Shown here piece by piece: positions 1 to 8,016 of a stretch of DNA of 14,002 bases (position 1 is the first letter of the stretch; the number at the start of each line of letters is the position of its first letter). A program made the translations under genes and the position numbers. Source of the stretch: a virus (lineage: Duplodnaviria > Heunggongvirae > Uroviricota > Caudoviricetes); IMG/VR virus record IMGVR_UViG_3300029828_000052, positions 1 to 14,002 of that record; one strand, 5' to 3'. A model generated the notes under the pieces. The model had not been told where the DNA came from and did not search any database. It saw only the letters and a program-made list of their open reading frames with translations.

Positions 1-2340
1 CTGGCATCGAAGTCTATGGCTTTCCCCAGCTCAACGATTGTGCGTACATCGCGATCGTTGTAGTAACGCCACGGGCAGGGGATCCCCTGCCGTTCGTATG
101 AACGGCGCAAAATCGTGTTGTCGAAGTTGGCTCCATTCCCCCAGACCTGGACAAAAAATTCACCGGAGTTTTCATCTATAAATTCCCGCAATTGCAGTAG
201 CGCATCATCTAACGGGATTTCATCGGTCAGAATGGCAGATTGCGCCTCGCGTGATTGCTTGAGCCACCATTTAATGGTGTCACGATCAATGACTCCGCCA
301 GTAGTTTCCAGATCGATGGTCTTGCTAAATTCCGGTCCCATATCTCCGGTTTGCGGATCGAAAAATATTGCACCTATTGAGATAATCGGGGCATCAGGAT
401 TTTTTCCCATGGTTTCGAGGTCGATCATTAGATGGTCATACGTCCTGCTGGTGGATGTGATTTCGTGATGACCGTTCACCTTAATTGAGTGATCTGCCGC
501 CTCGCCAGTTTCATTATCGCTGGCGTGGTCCTGAGCGCTGCCAGCATTCTCCTTGAGTGGATGTTCAGCGCCTGCCATTTCCTCCGGATCATTTTCCTGA
601 ACTTCAACCTGATTCTCTTCATCGAATGTTTCCTGGTATGTTGCGTCGCCCATCACCGCGCCACAATCAGGGCAGTTGCCGTCGCCGGTCTGACCGCAGG
701 CGGTGCAGACTTTTTCCGCTTCCTGTTGCGCTACTGGCGCAGGTTGTTTCGTTTCTGGCTCGTTTTGTAACGCATTTGAGCTGTTTTGTTCCTCTTTCTG
801 GTCGTTCTGTTCCGTTTCTTGCTGGTTCTGGTTCACAGAATCGCGGGTTTCAATCCCCTTCACCCATTTCGGATCATTCGGGTCGCTAATCCCTGCAACA
901 AATTCACCGCGAGAGGCCGCAAGCAACTTATCGGCGTCAGGCTGGCTGATATTGGCTGCTTGCATAATTTTGTTTACTTCGTCAGCGGTAACTTTTACCT
1001 GATTAACTGGATCTATCTGTGCCTGAGCATCCAGCGATTGCGTGTCCTGGCGATGTTCAGTTGTATCCGGTTCCATTGTTTCAGCCGTTGCCTGTTCATC
1101 TGCCATTGCGTCAGACGGTTGTGATTTTTCCTCATTATTTTTTTCTTCTTCTGTTTCGCGTTCAGCAGCCAGTTCGCGGTTAACTTCTTCCAGGATATCT
1201 TTTTCCGGTGTATGTCGTGCAGCAGCGAGAGTTTCCTCGGAAGGGTTCTCGTGATCAGTCTCTGTTAAATAGGCGTTGATATACCCCTGAAGACGTCCCG
1301 GGTAATGATAAAACTCAGGGTGTGCGCTCCGGATAAGTGCAAAAATAGCGGCGCGGGAATAATCCAGGATACCCGGGATTGCGCGAAGTGCCGCGGACCA
1401 TTCTTTGAACGGACTTTCTTTCTTCCGGACGATTTCTTTTGCGCGACGATAAATGCTGCCCGGAATTTCATAAATATTAAAATCCATCGGAAGTGTGGCC
1501 GCTGCAATCTCCACATCCAGCGTATCGAAGGTGTGTACTAAATTCGGATTGCGATCGGTTTTGTTCCCTCCACCGGCATTAGCACCGGAAGCCGTGCGGG
1601 TGATGCGTGAAACACGATTTCCTTTCATCCACTCTTTTGTCAGCAGACCGCGATCGGTGTAGTCAGCGCCCAGGTATGCTTCGAAAAAAGCAGTCATCAG
1701 TCCCAGATCTGAATTACCAGGATTAGGGAAAACTTTGTCAGTGTCACGAACCAGTTTGTGGAGATCGCGAATTTCCAGCGGTTCGAGTTGCGCTGCTTTA
1801 TTTGAGATGGCCAGCGCGGTAACGGCGGGAAGTTTTTCATCCTGTGCGTTATGTAATGCGCGTAGTTCGCCCCGCGAAACGTGTGTGATCGGTTTTTCGC
1901 TGCCGTGCTGTGCCAGCCATCGAACAGGCAGAATCTGACCTGAAACCGGCAGGAGCATATTCTCCTCAATCTCAGTCATGTCTTCGCCGTTGACGTTGGT
2001 ATTGTCAGTGCTGGCTGGTTTATCCTGAACAGAGGGCGAGGGCGCGATAAGTACCATTGTGATACCATCTTCCCCGCCTTTTTCGTATCGGTTGCAGAAT
2101 TCGGTATCAAACACGCCTTCCGGAGGAAGGTCATTCACAACGGGTAAATGGACGCGAACAGGTTTTTTAAAATCCTCTTCGTCAAATCCTGCATCGTCCA
2201 TTGCGACAACACCGCGTGATATTGCAAGCGATAGTTTTTTTGCTGTGCGCCAGTAAAAACCGCCTTTAATCCCAAGACGTTTTCTGACTTTGTCATTTTT
2301 GGCTTCGTAATATAGTGCAATTTCTTCTTTATCAGTGCTC
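1..2340 (-). CDS. recE: Exodeoxyribonuclease VIII (RecE-family) protein, 3'-truncated by window edge; Cys4 motif and DnaQ-like DEDD exonuclease motifs near the window edge
   Basis: My own translation from ATG at 2340-2338 runs 780 codons to position 1 with no stop; the ORF track lists no minus-strand ORF in this frame, consistent with an open frame leaving the window. GAGG lies 8 nt upstream and an in-frame stop 8 codons upstream. Translation contains stretches I recognise as RecE-like ([50 protein letters not shown]), then [16 protein letters not shown], then MIDLETMG and VWGNGANFD. Confidence 0.7.
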
Positions 2341-2419
2341 ATTGATAAACCTCATTACAGATTTAAGGGTGAACAAATCCCTGCCATTGCTGGCATATAA
2401 AAATGAAACCGGATATTTA

Positions 2420-2623
2420 TTACGGTGCTGGTTTAAGTCCTGCCGGGATTTCGTTATTGTCCATGTGAATAACTTTATCAACCGGATAACAGTTACCGGG
2501 AATTTTCTGTTCTGCTGCGGCAGCCATGCATTCTTTCATCGAACCGTAAATGTCAATAACCAGGTCAACAGGCTCGCCAGTGTTAAGAAAAACAGTCAGA
2601 GTGAGGGCAACAGCAGTATTCAT
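2420..2623 (-). CDS. Small protein (67 aa), YdfD-like position downstream of dicB
   Basis: Internal ATG (2623-2621) of ORF 2420..2677; ATGA start/stop overlap with dicB gives translational coupling; AGGA upstream. Identity as YdfD is by position only. Confidence 0.5.
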   Translation of the reverse strand: MNTAVALTLTVFLNTGEPVDLVIDIYGSMKECMAAAAEQKIPGNCYPVDKVIHMDNNEIPAGLKPAP

Positions 2624-2808
2624 TGCCAGTATCCTTTTTGCATCAGACGTAAACGGGCCAGCATTGAAACAATGCATATTTTATTTAATAGCTCCCGTTC
2701 TTGTTTTCTCTTGTTAATGGCATCTTCAGTAAATACAGGGTTACTGATAGTGACACCAATTTCAAAACAACCTTCAGACGTATTAACGTTTGGTAATAAC
2801 GTTTTCAT
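2620..2808 (-). CDS. dicB: Cell division inhibitor DicB (62 aa)
   Basis: Internal ATG (2808-2806) of ORF 2620..2904 preceded by AGGA; the 62-aa product MKTLLPNVNTSEGCFEIGVTISNPVFTEDAINKRKQERELLNKICIVSMLARLRLMQKGYWQ matches my recollection of DicB in size and sequence; lies about 180 bp downstream of the DicF-like sRNA as in the Qin dicB operon. Confidence 0.8.
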   Translation of the reverse strand: MKTLLPNVNTSEGCFEIGVTISNPVFTEDAINKRKQERELLNKICIVSMLARLRLMQKGYWQ

Positions 2809-2991
2809 TATCGCGTCCTCAACAATGAATTTTGTGATGCAGTGCCTGGTGCCTCCAGGTGACGTTAACCAGTTAACAATTAACGCCGGATACAGAGAAC
2901 CCACCCATAAGAACCAATACGGAAGTCAACTGGCCTTTTTAACTGTTCCGCGTGCGCTGAGCCGCATTCACCGCATCACAAAATTCACTTT

Positions 2992-3050
2992 AAAAAGGGC
3001 GGACATCAGCCAGCAATGAAAACTGATGCCGCCAAAAGGTAATCAACATG
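2992..3050 (-). ncRNA. dicF: DicF-like small RNA with intrinsic terminator (boundaries approximate)
   Basis: Minus strand reads ...UUGAUUACCUUUUGGCGGCAUCAGUUUUCAUUGCUGGCUGAUGUCCGCCCUUUUU. It shares the UUUGGCGG(U/C)AUCAGUUUU core and the GCCGCCCUUUUU-type terminator with DicF as I recall it, and sits immediately upstream of dicB. Confidence 0.6.
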
Positions 3051-3281
3051 GGTTGTTGCAGCTGATTGCCACAACCGGAAGCGCACGGACGAAGATGCCG
3101 GCGGCACGCAACAGAGGGAGAAATAACTTCGCCGTGCGCTTTCGTGTTGTGCCCTGGCTTTTCAGGGATATATCCTTTCAGTAAACTGTCAGTGCCGGAT
3201 TCTTATCCGTGTCCGGCGCACGACCACACGTGGCAGCGTGTTGGTCTCCATTTTTAACCCAGAACCTCAATGGAGGATAAA

Positions 3282-4877: not shown

Positions 4878-5285
4878 TTACTGATGTTTGTTACGTTTGC
4901 GAGCTTCTAGTAGCTCGGTGAATAGGCGATTAAAATTCTCAACGCGGGCACGGAGTTCGCTGATTTGTGCTTGCTGCTCTGATTTTGGAAGTGCGCGATA
5001 CAATCGCAACATCTCCAACTCATCTTCCGATAAGTCTAAGGCGCTGTTGAGTGCAACTGGTGGATCTGGTGTTTTATCCTCGTCACCAAACAGTATCCAA
5101 GTTGGTGAACATTGCAATACCTCAGCCAGGCGATGCAAATTTTGCCCGCGCGGGGCTGTATGGTCGCTTTCCCATAGTGAAATTGATGAGCCAGATACGC
5201 CAGCAGCTTTGCTTAAATCGTTTTGACTTAAACCAACCTGTTTGCGTCTTTCTCTAATTCGTTGACCTAAAGTTTTCTCGTTCAT
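4878..5285 (-). CDS. dicA: HTH XRE-family prophage repressor, DicA-like (135 aa)
   Basis: Complete ORF; N-terminal HTH (LSQNDLSKAAGVSGSSISLWE); VLQCSPTWILFGDEDK and ARVENFNRLFTELLEARKR match my recollection of DicA; divergent from a cro-like gene. No obvious SD, so possibly leaderless. Confidence 0.9.
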   Translation of the reverse strand: MNEKTLGQRIRERRKQVGLSQNDLSKAAGVSGSSISLWESDHTAPRGQNLHRLAEVLQCSPTWILFGDEDKTPDPPVALNSALDLSEDELEMLRLYRALPKSEQQAQISELRARVENFNRLFTELLEARKRNKHQ

Positions 5286-5362: not shown

Positions 5363-5590
5363 ATGTTTAAATCAGACGTAATTAATTTTTATGGGACGAA
5401 AGCCAAAGTAGCGAAAGCTGCTGGTGTTGATCCATCTGCTGTTTCTCAATGGGGGGAATTGGTTCCTGAAGGTCGCGCGATGCGCCTGCAAGAGGCATCC
5501 GGCGGGGAACTTCAGTACGACCCCAAAGTTTATGACGAATATCGTAAGGCAAAGCGGGCGGGGCGGTTGAACAATGAAAATCACCCCTGA
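5363..5590 (+). CDS. dicC: Cro-like regulator, DicC/YdaS family (75 aa)
   Basis: ATG at 5363 sits 3 nt after the GGAGGGG SD; the track start at 5336 is a TTG inside the operator. Small basic protein divergent from the repressor gene. Confidence 0.75.
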   Translation: MFKSDVINFYGTKAKVAKAAGVDPSAVSQWGELVPEGRAMRLQEASGGELQYDPKVYDEYRKAKRAGRLNNENHP

Positions 5591-6125
5591 ACAGGTTTGT
5601 GAGGCTCTGGATGCCTGGGTATGCCGACCAGGAATGACACAGGAGCAGGCGACGATATTAATCACGGAAGCATTCTGGGCTCTGAAAGAACGCCCGAACA
5701 TCGATGTTCAACGCGTCACGTTTAATGATGGCGAGGTTGATCAACGGGCGCTGGGCGTTAACCGGGTGAAGATATTCGAACGCTGGAAAGCTATCGACAC
5801 CAGGGATAAGCGGAAAAAATTCACGGCGCTGATTCCGGCAATTATGGAGGCTATCCGAATTAGTGATTTCAGGTTGTATCGTGAGATCAGTGATGGAAAA
5901 AGCATTACGTACATGATCGCCGGATTAAACAAAGAATATGGCGATGTGGTGGAGTCTGGGCTGCTTTTTGCGGATCCATCTGTTGTGGAACGTGAGACTG
6001 ACGAGCTTATAGAAAAAGCTATTGCTTTCAAGCATGCGTATCGTCAGCAATATCAATATTACTTTGCAGATAAACAAATGTCTGCCAGGGGTTCGTATGA
6101 GTATCGATGCACTACGATGGGCTAA
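5574..6125 (+). CDS. YdaT-like (CII-like) regulatory protein (183 aa)
   Basis: Complete ORF overlapping the cro-like gene by 17 nt; second gene after cro; contains ALIPAIMEAI, resembling what I recall of Rac YdaT. Confidence 0.7.
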   Translation: MKITPEQVCEALDAWVCRPGMTQEQATILITEAFWALKERPNIDVQRVTFNDGEVDQRALGVNRVKIFERWKAIDTRDKRKKFTALIPAIMEAIRISDFRLYREISDGKSITYMIAGLNKEYGDVVESGLLFADPSVVERETDELIEKAIAFKHAYRQQYQYYFADKQMSARGSYEYRCTTMG

Positions 6126-7137
6126 AAAGGTGAAAACCGGCAGTTCATCCAGTAAGTCTGTATTGACCTGGCTTGCTGATATGTGCGGTGCCGATTTGTG
6201 TGCATACCCGTCTGTATCTGCACTGGCAGAAGTAACGGAACTGAACAAAAAGACTGTGCAGGACAGCTTACGACACCTGATGGAGATTGGGTTAATTGTT
6301 GATACCGGTGAGAGAAAAGGCAAAACAAAGCAAATTGTGGTGTACCGACTTATCGGTGTAGAAGAAAGTGTTGCCGAGCCTGAATACACCCAAAAACGGG
6401 AGTCTTTAAAGGTGGGTAAAATTGGTGCTGTTAATAAAAACAGTACCGAAAATGGTTATGTTTCAGCACAAAACAGACCCAAAAACGGAACTCTTAGCTG
6501 CATGGAAAATAACCAAAGACACCCAAATTTTCCATCAAAGACACCCAAAAACGGATCACGGAACCCAAAGGAACCCAAAGATCTAAACCCCACACATAAC
6601 GCACGCGAGAGTGCTCCGACCAGTGAGCAGGAGGTTTTGTCGTTACAGGCAGCCCCCCCTGTATTCCTGGATGGCCTGAGCGAACCCATCGGAAAATTCC
6701 CGATGAGCGATAGCTGGTATCCGTCACGGGATTTTCGACGACGGGCTGCGTTGTGGGGGATGGCTTTGCCGGAGACAGAATTTACACCTGCTGAACTTGC
6801 CGCCTTCCGGGACTACTGGGCAGCGGAGGGTAAAGTTTTCACGCAGGTTCAGTGGGAGCAGAAATTCGCCCGTCACGTAAATCACGTCAGGGCGCAGGCT
6901 AAACCAGTCAGCAAGGGGGTAAACCATGCAGCAGCACCAGGTGGCACCGCATCACGGGCAGTTCAGGAAATTCGGGCAGCACGTGAGCAGTGGGAACGTG
7001 AAAACGGATTTATCAACGACGGAAACTGCCTGGAAGCTGTGGGAACTCATGGGGGAGGTTTATTCGAACCGCTGGACCCAGAAGAACGGGGCCGCACCTT
7101 CGAAGCTCTGGATTGCACAGATTGGCGCGATGACTGA
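6097..7137 (+). CDS. Replication initiation protein, O-like (N-terminal HTH, low-complexity linker, DnaT-like C-terminal region)
   Basis: ATG at 6097 with AGGGG SD (track start 6022 is further upstream). N-terminus MSIDALRWAKK...SVSALAEVTELNKKTVQDSLRHLMEIGLI is HTH-like; linker NRPKNGTLSCMENNQRHPNFPSKTPKNGSRNPKEPK coincides with the iteron-like repeats; C-terminal DSWYPSRDF...FRDYWAAEGKVFTQVQWEQKFARHV. The last ~70 codons overlap the P-like ORF. Confidence 0.75.
   Translation: MSIDALRWAKKVKTGSSSSKSVLTWLADMCGADLCAYPSVSALAEVTELNKKTVQDSLRHLMEIGLIVDTGERKGKTKQIVVYRLIGVEESVAEPEYTQKRESLKVGKIGAVNKNSTENGYVSAQNRPKNGTLSCMENNQRHPNFPSKTPKNGSRNPKEPKDLNPTHNARESAPTSEQEVLSLQAAPPVFLDGLSEPIGKFPMSDSWYPSRDFRRRAALWGMALPETEFTPAELAAFRDYWAAEGKVFTQVQWEQKFARHVNHVRAQAKPVSKGVNHAAAPGGTASRAVQEIRAAREQWERENGFINDGNCLEAVGTHGGGLFEPLDPEERGRTFEALDCTDWRDD
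6475..6580. repeat. Iteron-like direct repeats inside the O-like gene linker (candidate origin)
   Basis: AGACCCAAAAACGGAAC (6475-6491), AGACACCCAAATTTTCC (6517-6533), AGACACCCAAAAACGGATC (6539-6557), tandem GAACCCAAAG x2 (6561-6580); 21-22 bp phasing. Confidence 0.45.
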
Positions 7138-7591
7138 GCAGCAAATCCGGCAGGTCTGCCGCCAGTGCATGGACCGTTGCAGGGCAGGTGAAACATGGCC
7201 TCCGGACCTGGCTGAGTTTGTGGCGCTGATTTCGGAGAGCGGGGCAAATCCATTTGGTCTGACGGTGGATAACGTGATGGAGGAGTACCGACGCTGGCGC
7301 AACGAGTCCTGGCGATACGACGGAAGCGATAAATACCCGTGGTCTCAGCCTGTGCTGTATCACATTTGTCTCGAGATGCGTTCCAAGGGGATTGAGCGCC
7401 AGATGACCGAAGGGGAGTTAAAACGGCTTGCAGAACGGCAACTGGCGAAATGGGCAAAGCATGTTGGTAACGGACTGAGTGTTCCACCCGTCCGTAGGCA
7501 ACTGGCAGCACCCATACGTCCTGCGGGACCAACGCCAATTGAGTTGCTGAAACAGGAATATGAACGCAGGAAAGCGGCAGGTTTTGTTTGA
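6926..7591 (+). CDS. Replication protein P-like helicase loader (221 aa from ATG 6926; alternative starts 7049 or 7130)
   Basis: WPPDLAEFVALI and DKYPWSQPVLYHICLEMR resemble lambda P (GQFVAWC, SYPWKSNAHYWLV) as I recall it. ATG 6926 has a strong SD (AAGGGGG, 6-nt spacing) but overlaps the O-like ORF by 212 nt. Confidence 0.7.
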   Translation: MQQHQVAPHHGQFRKFGQHVSSGNVKTDLSTTETAWKLWELMGEVYSNRWTQKNGAAPSKLWIAQIGAMTEQQIRQVCRQCMDRCRAGETWPPDLAEFVALISESGANPFGLTVDNVMEEYRRWRNESWRYDGSDKYPWSQPVLYHICLEMRSKGIERQMTEGELKRLAERQLAKWAKHVGNGLSVPPVRRQLAAPIRPAGPTPIELLKQEYERRKAAGFV

Positions 7592-7620
7592 GTTGATAAG
7601 TAATTTTACCGGGAGGGTTT

Positions 7621-8016
7621 ATGGCGAAACCTTTTACACCCGAACAGCGGGAAGAGCTGAAGGCACGAATTATCGGATTGGTACGCAAAAATGGACGCAT
7701 GACGATGTCGCAACTGGAGAGAGCGACGGGAGCTGGCTGGCATTCGGTCCGGCGCTGCCTTGTGGATGTACTGGCTTGTGGTGATTTATACATGTCCGGG
7801 GAATACGGTGTTTTTGCATCAGAGCAGGCGTATCGTGAATGGCGTAAGACACCGGAGAAAACAACTGACCAGACACTGATTCGAAAGTTACCAGACGGAG
7901 AAATACGCCGCTACGACAGACACCTGAACATAATCTGTCGCGAGTGCCGGAAGAGTGAGGTTATGCAGCGAGTGCTGGCGTTTTATCAGGGGAAATTTCA
8001 GGAGGTGATGCTGTGA
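7621..8016 (+). CDS. Hypothetical protein (131 aa)
   Basis: Complete ORF; GGGAGGG SD just upstream of ATG; 4-nt overlap with the next gene. Confidence 0.7.
   Translation: MAKPFTPEQREELKARIIGLVRKNGRMTMSQLERATGAGWHSVRRCLVDVLACGDLYMSGEYGVFASEQAYREWRKTPEKTTDQTLIRKLPDGEIRRYDRHLNIICRECRKSEVMQRVLAFYQGKFQEVML

What the first reader, a model, noticed from the sequence alone, without database searches (positions are those of the whole stretch)
6926..7137. 212-nt same-strand overlap between the O-like and P-like reading frames
The P-like frame has its best start (ATG 6926, AAGGGGG SD) 212 nt before the O-like stop (7137). Both frames are open through the overlap. The O-like tail here (GVNHAAAPGGTASRAVQ...DCTDWRDD) looks less protein-like than the P-like frame. 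Possibilities are a genuine long overlap, a later P start (7049 or 7130), or a frameshift or indel that extended O.
Basis: seen in the sequence. Interest (0 to 1): 0.4.

Follow-up and report, generated by a model that had tools for sequence, protein, structure and literature searches.

The report
Real 212-base initiator/helicase-loader gene overlap
In this E. coli prophage the gene for the replication initiator and the gene for the helicase loader share 212 bases read in two frames; the arrangement is conserved across enterobacteria, yet reference annotations hide it by starting the loader gene 68 codons too late.

Summary
The O-like ORF (6097-7137) and the P-like ORF (6926-7591) overlap by 212 nt, P one base downstream of O. 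It is not an indel artefact and not a short overlap with a late P start. Of 114 related loci, 107 keep an overlap of 149-227 nt (mode 212). These include nine loci from other genera whose initiator body lacks the window's DnaT-type domain. P's conserved residues begin near codon 35 (nt 7028), upstream of both internal ATGs (7049, 7130). The 221-aa form aligns along nearly the whole length of lambda P. ATG 6926 has a strong Shine-Dalgarno site that is conserved in all 27 species-level loci (mean -9.5 kcal/mol, against -5.2 at 7049; in the window -11.8, -4.2, and -1.5 at 7130). The overlap has two halves. In 6926-7027 the O frame dominates: a conserved helix in O lies over P's disordered N-terminus. 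In 7028-7134 the P frame dominates (dN/dS 0.13): folded P helices lie over a disordered acidic O tail. The weaker frame still leaves a trace in each half. RefSeq starts P at 7130 (153 aa) in the three records checked; 1253 of 5426 complete E. coli genomes hold the junction. Inferred only: the tail docks P. This is a new, well-supported example of a known kind.

The parts
6097..7137 (+). O-like replication initiator gene (346 aa): weak HTH_36 match at the N-terminus, a low-complexity linker with iteron-like repeats, a DnaT-type domain, then a 70-residue tail
   Evidence: ORF. Pfam DnaT domain 62.1 bits (cut-off 25); HTH_36 20.8 bits, below its cut-off. The annotated homologue in PPompW has the same 1041-nt length.
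6697..6900 (+). DnaT-type DNA-binding domain of O. This O-only stretch served as the control zone Z0.
   Evidence: Pfam match at residues 201-268. AF2 pLDDT about 90. O-frame dN/dS 0.18; O third positions change 6.47 times per site.
6913..6919 (+). Shine-Dalgarno site for P (AAGGGGG), lying in O's disordered linker codons
   Evidence: Duplex energy with the anti-SD is -11.8 kcal/mol, against -4.2 at 7049 and -1.5 at 7130. GGAGG- or GGGGG-type sites sit at the same place in all 27 loci. The linker has pLDDT below 50.
6920..6922 (+). TAA in the P frame, which closes that frame just upstream of ATG 6926
   Evidence: It argues against an O-to-P frameshift fusion upstream of this point.
6926..7591 (+). 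P-like helicase loader gene, long form (221 aa)
   Evidence: Pfam Phage_lambda_P 61.9 bits. Homologues of 215-223 aa down to about 50% identity cover 92-100% of it. Foldseek aligns 219 columns with the near-complete lambda P chain 9oa1_Z.
6926..7137 (+). The 212-nt overlap between O and P
   Evidence: An overlap is conserved in 107 of 114 loci, most often 212 nt.
6926..7027 (+). First half of the overlap (Z1). The O frame dominates: O encodes a conserved helix (TASRAVQEIRAAREQWER, about 6949-7002) while P encodes its disordered N-terminus (residues 1-34).
   Evidence: O-frame dN/dS is 0.42 and P-frame 0.74, against a control of 1.29. O residues T, S, R, A, V, Q, I, A and W are invariant. O four-fold sites have entropy 1.02 here against 1.48 in the O-only zone, p=0.0009. 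P residues 1-27 have pLDDT below 50. The O helix spans fragment residues 91-108.
7028..7134 (+). Second half of the overlap (Z2). The P frame dominates: P encodes the first helices of its folded N-terminal domain (AWKLWELMGEVYSNRWTQKNGAAPSKLWIAQIG) while O encodes a disordered acidic tail (…GGGLFEPLDPEERGRTFEALDCTDWRDD).
   Evidence: P-frame dN/dS is 0.13 and O-frame 1.66, against a control of 2.30. Changes per site are P3 4.94, P1 1.39 and P2 1.47. P four-fold sites have entropy 1.44 here against 1.63 downstream, p=0.039. The O tail is more acidic than the P protein alone predicts in 25 of 25 loci. O pLDDT is below 50.
7049..7051 (+). Internal ATG (P Met42). It is the annotated start of the 177-181-aa database forms and a possible minor start.
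   Evidence: Nearly invariant, but the SD energy is only -4.2 kcal/mol in the window and -5.2 on average. L023 and L025 have CTG here. It lies inside predicted helix 25-46.
7130..7132 (+). Internal ATG (P Met69). RefSeq/PGAP and the Rac-SA53 and pPE4 phage records use it as the start, giving a 153-aa protein and an 8-nt ATGACTGA overlap.
   Evidence: SD energy is -1.5 kcal/mol. Invariant P residues lie upstream of it.
7135..7137 (+). O stop codon (TGA)
   Evidence: In 17 of 27 species-level overlap loci the stop is at the same place, 55 nt after the first base of P's KNG codon; in the others it lies at +19 to +91.

Best explanation
This is a genuine, conserved out-of-frame overlap of 212 nt between two genes of a Rac-type lambdoid prophage replication module. 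The genes are the initiator (O-like: HTH plus a DnaT-type domain) and the lambda-P-family helicase loader.

Shown:
- P is a 221-aa protein that lines up with lambda P along nearly its whole length.
- Its start, ATG 6926, has its own strong and conserved Shine-Dalgarno site inside O's disordered linker.
- O has no in-frame stop before 7135, so ribosomes must translate it that far.
- The overlap divides the work between the frames. In 6926-7027 the O frame holds a conserved amphipathic helix and the P frame holds a disordered N-terminal segment, the counterpart of lambda P's N-terminal 'lasso'. In 7028-7134 the P frame holds the first helices of its folded domain and the O frame holds a disordered acidic tail.
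- In each half the weaker frame still limits change at the dominant frame's synonymous sites.
- The tail and P travel together. The same tail is attached to initiator bodies of at least four different Pfam make-ups (HTH_36+DnaT, lambda-type O, HTH_36/DnaD_N, DUF1376) and to four more with no Pfam match.

Inferred, not shown: the O tail is the element through which the initiator recruits P. Because it is written in the same DNA as P's N-terminus, recombination between mosaic phages cannot separate the docking peptide from its partner. Starting P inside O may also tie P synthesis to O translation.
For: ORFs and coordinates.

P extends upstream of 7049 and 7130:
- Alignment of 27 homologues at 44-80% identity shows conservation from about residue 35, with W50, K53, N54, G55, P58 and W62 invariant.
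- The Pfam model matches from residue 56 at profile position 28.
- Profile position 68 aligns with lambda P residue 81.
- AF2 predicts helix 25-46, spanning Met42, with pLDDT about 83-85.
- Foldseek aligns 219 columns with the near-complete lambda P chain 9oa1_Z at probability 1.00.
- P-frame dN/dS in 7028-7134 is 0.13.
- Orphan P genes with no initiator upstream (L026, L031) still start 16-32 codons upstream of the AWxLW motif.

Start at 6926:
- An ATG lies 43-53 codons upstream of KNG in all 27 loci.
- Mean SD energy is -9.5 kcal/mol, the 1.5th percentile of background, against -5.2 at the Met42 ATG. In the window the values are -11.8, -4.2 and -1.5.
- L023 and L025 have CTG at the Met42 position.
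- O's four-fold sites are more conserved in 6926-7027 than in the O-only zone, p=0.0009.

The O tail is real:
- 107 of 114 loci are intact.
- The tail motif is shared across initiator families.
- The O frame is open in 27 of 27 loci, against about 0.25 expected per locus.
- P's four-fold sites are more conserved inside the overlap, p=0.039. The third base of P codon 47 is G in 21 of 24 loci, which keeps Glu in O's FEPLD.
- Net acidic charge exceeds the simulated mean in 25 of 25 loci.

Tail type follows loader type: K-12 YdaU has a homologous DUF1376 body but is followed by the DnaC-like YdaV without overlap, and it ends in a DnaT-like …VNTVSLPDSAIPPGFRG tail instead.

Context from papers: deleting lambda P residues 9-86 abolishes its function (PMC3640518). 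Lambda P domain I (1-29) is a disordered lasso that the authors speculate engages O (PMC12661323).
Against: - There is no direct evidence of translation from 6926. No ribosome profiling or peptide data were available.
- Met42 is nearly invariant, and NCBI names 177-181-aa forms 'replication protein P' in many genera. A start at 7049, or two isoforms, cannot be ruled out.
- In 7028-7134 the O frame's dN/dS is 1.66, close to the non-coding control of 2.30. The O stop position varies from +19 to +91 nt. The synonymous-site signal there is weak (p=0.039, 15 sites). So the last 35 residues of O may be tolerated read-on rather than functional.
- All the statistical tests use related sequences, so their p-values are optimistic.
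- The docking role of the tail rests on co-occurrence and on analogy with lambda O and P. No interaction was modelled or measured.
Confidence: 0.8

Rival explanations
1. P starts at ATG 7049 (Met42, 180 aa). The overlap is then real but only 89 nt, and the P-frame ORF upstream of 7049 is untranslated.
For: Met42 is nearly invariant. Many database entries of 177-181 aa are named 'replication protein P'. P residues 1-34 are poorly conserved and predicted disordered. Given the O protein, the P frame would stay open over 6926-7027 by chance about 0.69 of the time.
Against: The AWxLWE motif upstream of Met42 is conserved, while the codon third positions in that stretch vary freely (entropy 1.4-1.6), as expected for translated P sequence. 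Met42 sits inside predicted helix 25-46. L023 and L025 have CTG there and no other ATG apart from the upstream one. The SD site is weak (-5.2 against -9.5 kcal/mol). The upstream ATG and its SD are conserved in 27 of 27 loci. O's synonymous sites are constrained in 6926-7027 (p=0.0009). Lambda P has an equivalent N-terminal segment.
Confidence: 0.1
2. This is an ordinary short overlap. P starts at ATG 7130 (153 aa, ATGACTGA, 8 nt), as RefSeq and the Rac-SA53 and pPE4 phage records annotate, and the long P-frame ORF upstream is chance.
For: The RefSeq records checked and two of the three phage records checked annotate it this way. ATGA-type coupled junctions are the usual arrangement, and lambda O/P has a 4-nt one.
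Against: P-frame dN/dS upstream of 7130 is 0.13. Eight invariant or nearly invariant P residues are encoded upstream. The Pfam and lambda P alignments extend upstream. This start would remove three predicted helices and roughly the first half of the counterpart of lambda P domain II. The SD energy is -1.5 kcal/mol.
Confidence: 0.02
3. The overlap is physically real, with P starting at 6926, but the part of O encoded in 7028-7134 has no function. O reads on into P's coding region until it meets a stop, and only the helix in 6926-7027 matters to O.
For: O-frame dN/dS of 1.66 is close to the non-coding control of 2.30. The O stop ranges from +19 to +91 nt after KNG, and three loci (L021, L029, L033) lack the terminal LD..DW.DD segment. 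AF2 gives pLDDT below 50.
Against: The O frame is never cut short before KNG+19 in 27 loci, although each has about a 0.25 chance of staying open to its observed stop. The third base of P codon 47 is G in 21 of 24 loci and that of codon 43 in 18 of 21, which keeps Glu and Gly in O. Net acidity exceeds the simulated mean in 25 of 25 loci. The EP[LVM]D.EE[RW] motif recurs across initiator families.
Confidence: 0.25
4. The O tail results from a sequencing or assembly indel, or a recent frameshift, near 6900-6930 in this particular sequence.
For: None beyond the unusual length of the overlap. Palleja et al. classed every co-directional overlap over 60 bp that they examined as an error (PMC2478687).
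Against: The same frame, tail and stop occur in 107 of 114 loci. The junction DNA is found in 1253 complete E. coli genomes. Related genera down to about 50% P identity have the same arrangement. O residues in the tail helix are invariant.
Confidence: 0.01

Closest known systems
Bacteriophage lambda O-P replication module
   Same: The gene order is the same: initiator, then P-family helicase loader, on the early rightward operon. P here belongs to the same Pfam family and lines up with lambda P along nearly its whole length. Iteron-like repeats lie inside the initiator gene, as ori-lambda lies inside O (not followed up). In lambda, P's N-terminal region is essential (PMC3640518).
   Different: Lambda O and P overlap by only 4 nt; here the overlap is 212 nt. 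The window's initiator is not a Phage_rep_O protein. Lambda O lacks the roughly 55-residue helix-plus-acidic segment; it ends …KLDLTNTDWIYGVDL.
Lambda O' read-through product (Yates et al. 1977, as cited in PMC3640518)
   Same: It is a longer form of the initiator whose C-terminal extension is encoded, in another frame, within the start of P.
   Different: In lambda it arises by read-through of the UGA stop and adds 34 mostly basic residues with no similarity to this tail. Here the extension is the normal, conserved end of the protein.
holD/rimI overlap in enterobacteria, the longest genuine co-directional overlap found by Palleja et al. 2008 (PMC2478687)
   Same: It is a conserved same-strand overlap supported by comparison of orthologues.
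   Different: That overlap is 32-56 bp. This one is 149-227 nt, about four times longer, and lies in a mobile element.
Classic phage overlapping genes (phiX174 A/B/K and D/E; lambda Rz/Rz1) and virus overprinting, in which one frame encodes disorder; cited from my own knowledge
   Same: One stretch of DNA is read in two frames, and a structured segment in one frame pairs with a disordered segment in the other.
   Different: Here the two products are presumed partners in the same pathway. The overlap joins the C-terminus of one protein to the N-terminus of the other rather than embedding a whole small gene.
E. coli DnaT and K-12 Rac YdaU (followed by the DnaC-like YdaV)
   Same: All share a DnaT-type C-terminal domain. 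YdaU's DUF1376 body is homologous to the initiators of L022, L023 and L116, which carry this tail.
   Different: YdaU ends …VNTVSLPDSAIPPGFRG, does not overlap the next gene, and is followed by a different kind of loader.

Membership tests
Lambda P helicase-loader family (Pfam PF06992) | Sequence match to the family model above the curated cut-off | tested here: met
   61.9 bits against a cut-off of 26, residues 56-188 on profile positions 28-161. A profile of homologues hits lambda P chains 8v9t and 8v9s at E=2.6e-6.
Lambda P helicase-loader family (Pfam PF06992) | Full-length architecture lined up with lambda P: N-terminal lasso, domain II, domain III, C-terminal lasso | tested here: met
   The AF2 model of the 221-aa form aligns over 219 columns with 9oa1_Z at probability 1.00, with TM about 0.5 because the domains are flexibly linked. 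Domain limits are from PMC12661323.
Lambda P helicase-loader family (Pfam PF06992) | Binds and loads DnaB, and is recruited by the initiator | not testable with these tools
   Biochemical property; not examined.
Genuine dual-coding same-strand gene overlap | Both reading frames stay open, with the same arrangement, in diverged relatives | tested here: met
   107 of 114 loci, and 27 of 27 species-level loci that have an initiator upstream.
Genuine dual-coding same-strand gene overlap | The downstream gene's start inside the upstream gene is supported by conserved initiation signals | tested here: met
   ATG plus a GGAGG- or GGGGG-type SD in 27 of 27 loci; mean -9.5 kcal/mol, the 1.5th percentile of background.
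Genuine dual-coding same-strand gene overlap | Purifying selection on the P frame within the overlap | tested here: met
   dN/dS is 0.13 in 7028-7134 and 0.74 in 6926-7027, against a control of 1.29. O's four-fold sites are constrained in both halves, p=0.0009 and p=1e-6.
Genuine dual-coding same-strand gene overlap | Purifying selection on the O frame within the overlap | tested here: inconclusive
   Clear in 6926-7027: dN/dS 0.42 and an invariant TASRAVQ.I..A...W. Weak in 7028-7134: dN/dS 1.66 against a control of 2.30; four-fold P3 entropy p=0.039; the frame is kept open; acidic bias in 25 of 25 loci.
Genuine dual-coding same-strand gene overlap | Direct evidence that both products are made (ribosome profiling, peptides) | not testable with these tools
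   No such data were available, and the paper searches found none.
Lambda O initiator family (Pfam PF04492, Phage_rep_O) | Match to the Phage_rep_O N-terminal domain | tested here: not met
   The window's initiator matches only DnaT (62.1 bits) and, below the cut-offs, HTH_36 and RP-C. 'O-like' therefore describes its role, not its family. L019 does have Phage_rep_O together with the same tail.
Annotation or sequencing artefact (error classes of Palleja et al. 2008) | One of the two genes differs markedly in length from its orthologues | tested here: not met
   The O length and stop, and the long P form of 215-223 aa, recur among orthologues.
Programmed frameshift producing an O-P fusion | The downstream frame lacks its own start and is entered from the upstream frame | tested here: not met
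   P has its own SD and ATG, and a TAA closes the P frame at 6920-6922. No unusual RNA structure was found (z=0.54). One metagenomic fusion protein, P0143, is probably an error.

The most novel reading that the evidence does not exclude
The O tail and the N-terminal domain of P may form a self-contained recruitment cassette. On this reading the helix and acidic tail at the end of the initiator are the peptide that docks the P loader. That peptide is written in the same 212 bases as P's own N-terminal region. Any recombination that brings in this P gene then also gives the upstream initiator the matching docking peptide. That would explain how the same tail comes to sit on initiator bodies of at least four different Pfam make-ups plus unclassified ones. 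Overlapping reading frames would here act as a device that keeps an interacting pair together in mosaic phage genomes.
Probability: 0.35. Interest if true: 0.7.

Novelty: new member of a known kind. Interest (0 to 1): 0.5.

Why it matters
1. Annotation. The junction DNA is found in 1253 of 5426 complete E. coli genomes. In the three RefSeq records checked, including O157:H7, the loader is annotated 68 residues short. That removes its N-terminal segment and about half of the domain that, in lambda P, holds the loader pentamer together (PMC12661323). Anyone who clones or models the annotated 153-aa protein would be working with a truncated one. Database entries use at least five different starts, giving 221-223, 177-181, 153 and 140 aa forms.

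2. Gene-finding rules. A survey of 338 genomes found no genuine co-directional overlap longer than 60 bp and proposed flagging all such cases as errors (PMC2478687). This case is well supported by comparative data and is about four times longer than the longest overlap that survey accepted as genuine.

3. Biology. The same tail on unrelated initiators, always overlapping this P subfamily, gives a testable idea of how lambdoid phages keep initiator and loader compatible while exchanging modules. It also points to a specific peptide for studying how the initiator recruits the P-DnaB complex, a step that is still unresolved for lambda itself.

Tried and rejected
- Searching the large protein database with the 81-residue tail alone returned only fragments. 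The exhaustive HMMER search with 85 residues found 26 hits, mostly C-termini of proteins of about 320-360 aa. It carries no annotation, so it added little on architectures.
- Folding the RNA around P's start (6880-6975) showed nothing special: z=0.54, with 138 of 200 shuffles folding at least as well. No evidence was found for a structure that hides the SD site until O is translated.
- The promoter and terminator scan of 6000-7700 found none, so nothing suggests a separate transcript for P.
- The count of third-base T at positions where T would create an O-frame stop (0 of 104 inside the overlap against 29% downstream) is partly circular, because the overlap is defined as ending at the first such stop. 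I rely instead on resampling, four-fold-site entropy and charge.
- I tested whether lambda's O' read-through extension is homologous to this tail. It is not.
- Paper searches for ydaU/ydaV, for O/P overlap, for DnaT-like with replication protein P, and for overprinting in replication modules found no description of this overlap. Subscription-only papers were not searchable.
- A complex prediction of the O tail with P could not be run, because the structure tool takes single chains only.
Full report
**What is in the window.** The region belongs to a Rac-type lambdoid prophage replication module. In order it holds a dicA-like repressor (4878-5285, minus strand), a small Cro/DicC-like ORF, a YdaT-family ORF (5574-6125), the 'O-like' ORF (ATG 6097 to TGA 7137), the 'P-like' ORF (open 6923-7591) and a DUF977 ORF (7621-8016). 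The closest phage records are the E. coli PPompW/Stx2a prophages at 96.5% identity, and Rac-SA53 at 91%. A 501-base query spanning the junction (6800-7300) matches 1253 of 5426 complete E. coli genomes.

**Checking the observation.** The coordinates are right.
- The O frame has no stop before 7135-7137.
- The P frame opens immediately after TAA 6920-6922 and has ATGs at 6926, 7049 and 7130.
- AAGGGGG lies at 6913-6919.
- The overlap from 6926 to 7137 is 212 nt.
- P codons begin one base after O codons, so O's third position is P's second and P's third position is O's first. In this phase almost any base change alters at least one of the two proteins.

**How others annotate it.** Three starts are in use.
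- Rac-SA53, phage pPE4 and RefSeq/PGAP, including O157:H7, start P at the 7130 equivalent. This gives 153 aa and an 8-nt ATGACTGA overlap.
- PPompW records start P later still, giving 140 aa.
- In the large protein collection, homologues are called at 221-223, 177-181, 153 and 140 aa.

The start of this gene is therefore annotated inconsistently.

**Where P really begins.**
- In an alignment of 27 homologues at 44-80% identity, conservation starts at about residue 35 (AWxLWExMGEIYSNRWTxKNGxxPSxLWIAQIG). W50, K53, N54, G55, P58 and W62 are invariant, and all are encoded upstream of 7130.
- The Pfam lambda-P model already matches from residue 56, at profile position 28.
- A profile of the family aligns its position 68 with lambda P residue 81.
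- An AF2 model of the 221-aa form has residues 1-27 disordered and a helix at 25-46 with pLDDT about 83-85. That helix runs through Met42.
- Foldseek aligns 219 columns of the model with the near-complete lambda P chain 9oa1_Z at probability 1.00.
- Two orphan P genes that have no initiator upstream (L026, L031) still begin 16-32 codons before the AWxLW motif.

A start at 7130 is therefore excluded, and 7049 would cut a conserved helix.

**The start codon.** In 27 species-level loci from Escherichia, Salmonella, Citrobacter, Klebsiella, Enterobacter, Pluralibacter, Phytobacter, Kluyvera, Pectobacterium, Rahnella, Buttiauxella, Yersinia and others, there is always an ATG 43-53 codons upstream of the KNG motif.
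- That ATG is preceded by a GGAGG- or GGGGG-type Shine-Dalgarno site at normal spacing. The mean duplex energy is -9.5 kcal/mol, the 1.5th percentile of all codon positions inside the initiator genes.
- The ATG at the Met42 position averages -5.2 kcal/mol, the 15th percentile.
- L023 and L025 have CTG at the Met42 position.
- In the window the energies are -11.8 at 6926, -4.2 at 7049 and -1.5 at 7130.

In the O frame the SD and ATG read as the conserved 'GG.NH' of a linker that AF2 predicts to be disordered.

**Is the O tail real?** O is plainly a gene up to the overlap: dN/dS is 0.18 in its DnaT domain. Because it has no in-frame stop before 7135, the tail is translated whatever its function. 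The tail is not peculiar to this sequence. 107 of 114 loci have an intact overlap of 149-227 nt, and 84 of them have exactly 212 nt. The exceptions are two orphan P genes, one pseudogene, two loci cut by contig ends and two with shorter O ORFs. An indel artefact is excluded.

**Selection in each frame.** I divided the region into four zones:
- Z0: O only, 6697-6919.
- Z1: first half of the overlap, 6926-7027.
- Z2: second half of the overlap, 7028-7134.
- Z3: P only, from 7138.

Parsimony changes per site on 84 unique sequences:

| Zone | O1/P3 | O2/P1 | O3/P2 |
|---|---|---|---|
| Z0 | 2.79 | 2.31 | 6.47 |
| Z1 | 3.21 | 2.44 | 4.06 |
| Z2 | 4.94 | 1.39 | 1.47 |
| Z3 | about 7.7 | about 2 | 1.2 |

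Nei-Gojobori dN/dS on 17 species-level sequences:

| Frame | Z0 | Z1 | Z2 | Z3 |
|---|---|---|---|---|
| O | 0.18 | 0.42 | 1.66 | 2.30 (control) |
| P | 1.29 (control) | 0.74 | 0.13 | 0.09 |

The O frame dominates the first half and the P frame the second. The weaker frame still leaves a mark in each half.
- O's four-fold-degenerate third positions have entropy 1.48 in Z0, 1.02 in Z1 (p=0.0009) and 0.25 in Z2 (p=1e-6).
- P's four-fold third positions have entropy 1.63 downstream and 1.44 inside the overlap (p=0.039). The third base of codon 47 is G in 21 of 24 loci and that of codon 43 in 18 of 21, which keeps Glu and Gly in O's 'GG.LFEPLD'.
- With the P protein fixed and its codons resampled, the O frame stays open to its observed stop only about 25% of the time. 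It is open in 27 of 27 loci.
- The O tail's net acidic charge exceeds the simulated mean in 25 of 25 loci, with 11 below p=0.05.

These sequences are related, so the p-values are optimistic. The signal for O in Z2 is real but weak.

**Order and disorder alternate between the frames.** The AF2 model of O's C-terminal 152 residues shows four parts:
- The DnaT domain is confident, with pLDDT about 90.
- The linker that carries P's SD and ATG is disordered.
- A lone helix over TASRAVQEIRAAREQWER has pLDDT about 61, and its residues are invariant in the alignment.
- The last 44 residues are disordered.

In P the order is reversed: the N-terminus is disordered, then helices begin. Each stretch of DNA therefore encodes structure in one frame and disorder in the other, which is the usual solution in overlapping viral genes.

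**The tail travels with P, not with the initiator.** The protein upstream of this P subfamily varies in family:
- HTH_36 plus DnaT in the window; L024 and L032 likewise carry the DnaT domain.
- A true lambda-type Phage_rep_O in L019.
- HTH_36/DnaD_N in L020.
- DUF1376 in L022 and L023.
- Nothing known to Pfam in L021, L027, L029 and L033.

All of them end in the same module: …GG.NH…ES.A.Q.IRAARE.WER…G..G.NL.EPLD.EE[RW]…LD..D[WR]..D. In E. coli itself the same junction DNA, at 96% identity, follows either a 'DnaT-like' or a 'DUF1376' protein. K-12 Rac YdaU is the converse case. It has a homologous DUF1376 body but is followed, without overlap, by the DnaC-like YdaV, and it ends in a DnaT-like …VNTVSLPDSAIPPGFRG tail. 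This is a small sample, but tail type follows loader type.

**Mechanism.** Shown:
- There are two proteins, 346 and 221 aa, from one transcript region. No promoter or terminator lies inside it.
- P has its own ribosome-binding site inside O.
- No special RNA structure surrounds that site.

Inferred: the tail is the initiator's docking element for P. Several points from lambda fit this. The O and P proteins work together at the origin. Removing P residues 9-86 abolishes its function (PMC3640518). The recent cryo-EM work describes P's N-terminal lasso (residues 1-29) and domain II (about 30-119), and its authors speculate that the lassos engage O (PMC12661323). Writing the docking peptide in the same bases as P's N-terminal region would prevent recombination from separating them. 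I put this reading at about 0.35-0.4.

**Comparison with what is known.**
- Lambda O and P overlap by 4 nt.
- Lambda's O' read-through extension is encoded within P's start in another frame, but it is a 34-residue basic peptide unrelated to this tail (PMC3640518).
- Palleja et al. judged none of 715 co-directional overlaps over 60 bp in 338 genomes to be real. The longest genuine one they found was holD/rimI at 32-56 bp (PMC2478687).
- Overlapping genes are well known in phages, so this is a new member of a known kind rather than a new principle.
- I found no paper that describes this overlap.

**Verdict.**
- An overlap of at least 89 nt is near certain.
- The full 212 nt, with P starting at 6926, has a probability of about 0.8.
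- Whether the last 35 residues of O are functional is still open.
- The practical result is a systematic truncation of P in reference annotations.

Noticed in passing
window 6383-6579: Iteron-like direct repeats lie inside the O-like gene's low-complexity linker: 24-mers of the ACACCCAAAAACGG type at 6383, 6472 and 6538, and CAAAGACACCCAAA at 6514, 6536 and 6566. They are probably the replication origin, as ori-lambda lies inside O.
   Followed up: no
window 6097-6125: The YdaT-family ORF (5574-6125) overlaps the start of the O-like gene (ATG 6097) by 29 nt. The PPompW record annotates the same overlap.
   Followed up: no
P0143 (JGI metagenome protein, 219 aa): A single database protein runs from the O tail straight into the P frame (…EPVDPEERGGTSDMWIAQIGSM…WPPDLAEF…). 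This is either a frameshift error in one contig or a natural fusion.
   Followed up: no
L118 (lambda) 930-986; window 7105-7134: Lambda O ends …KLDLTNTDWIYGVDL and the window's O ends …ALDCTDWRDD. They may share a terminal LD..(T)DW motif. The initiator bodies of L020 and L033 resemble lambda O's C-terminal domain (…SKLRDKW…) by eye, yet carry the long tail.
   Followed up: partly
L119 (E. coli K-12 Rac) 1620-3230: K-12 YdaU has a DUF1376 body and is followed by the DnaC-like YdaV after a 6-nt gap. It ends in a DnaT-like …VNTVSLPDSAIPPGFRG tail rather than the tail seen here. The type of initiator tail appears to follow the type of loader.
   Followed up: partly
L026 2992-3618; L031 2974-3543: Stand-alone P-family genes in Erwinia chromosomes sit next to housekeeping-like genes, with no initiator upstream. 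They are probably prophage remnants. They were useful as examples of P that does not overlap another gene.
   Followed up: partly
L003 (Actinobacillus phage vB_Apl-pPE4): A phage recorded as infecting Actinobacillus pleuropneumoniae carries this E. coli-type O tail and P at 91.8% nucleotide identity. That is unexpectedly close for a host in the Pasteurellaceae.
   Followed up: no
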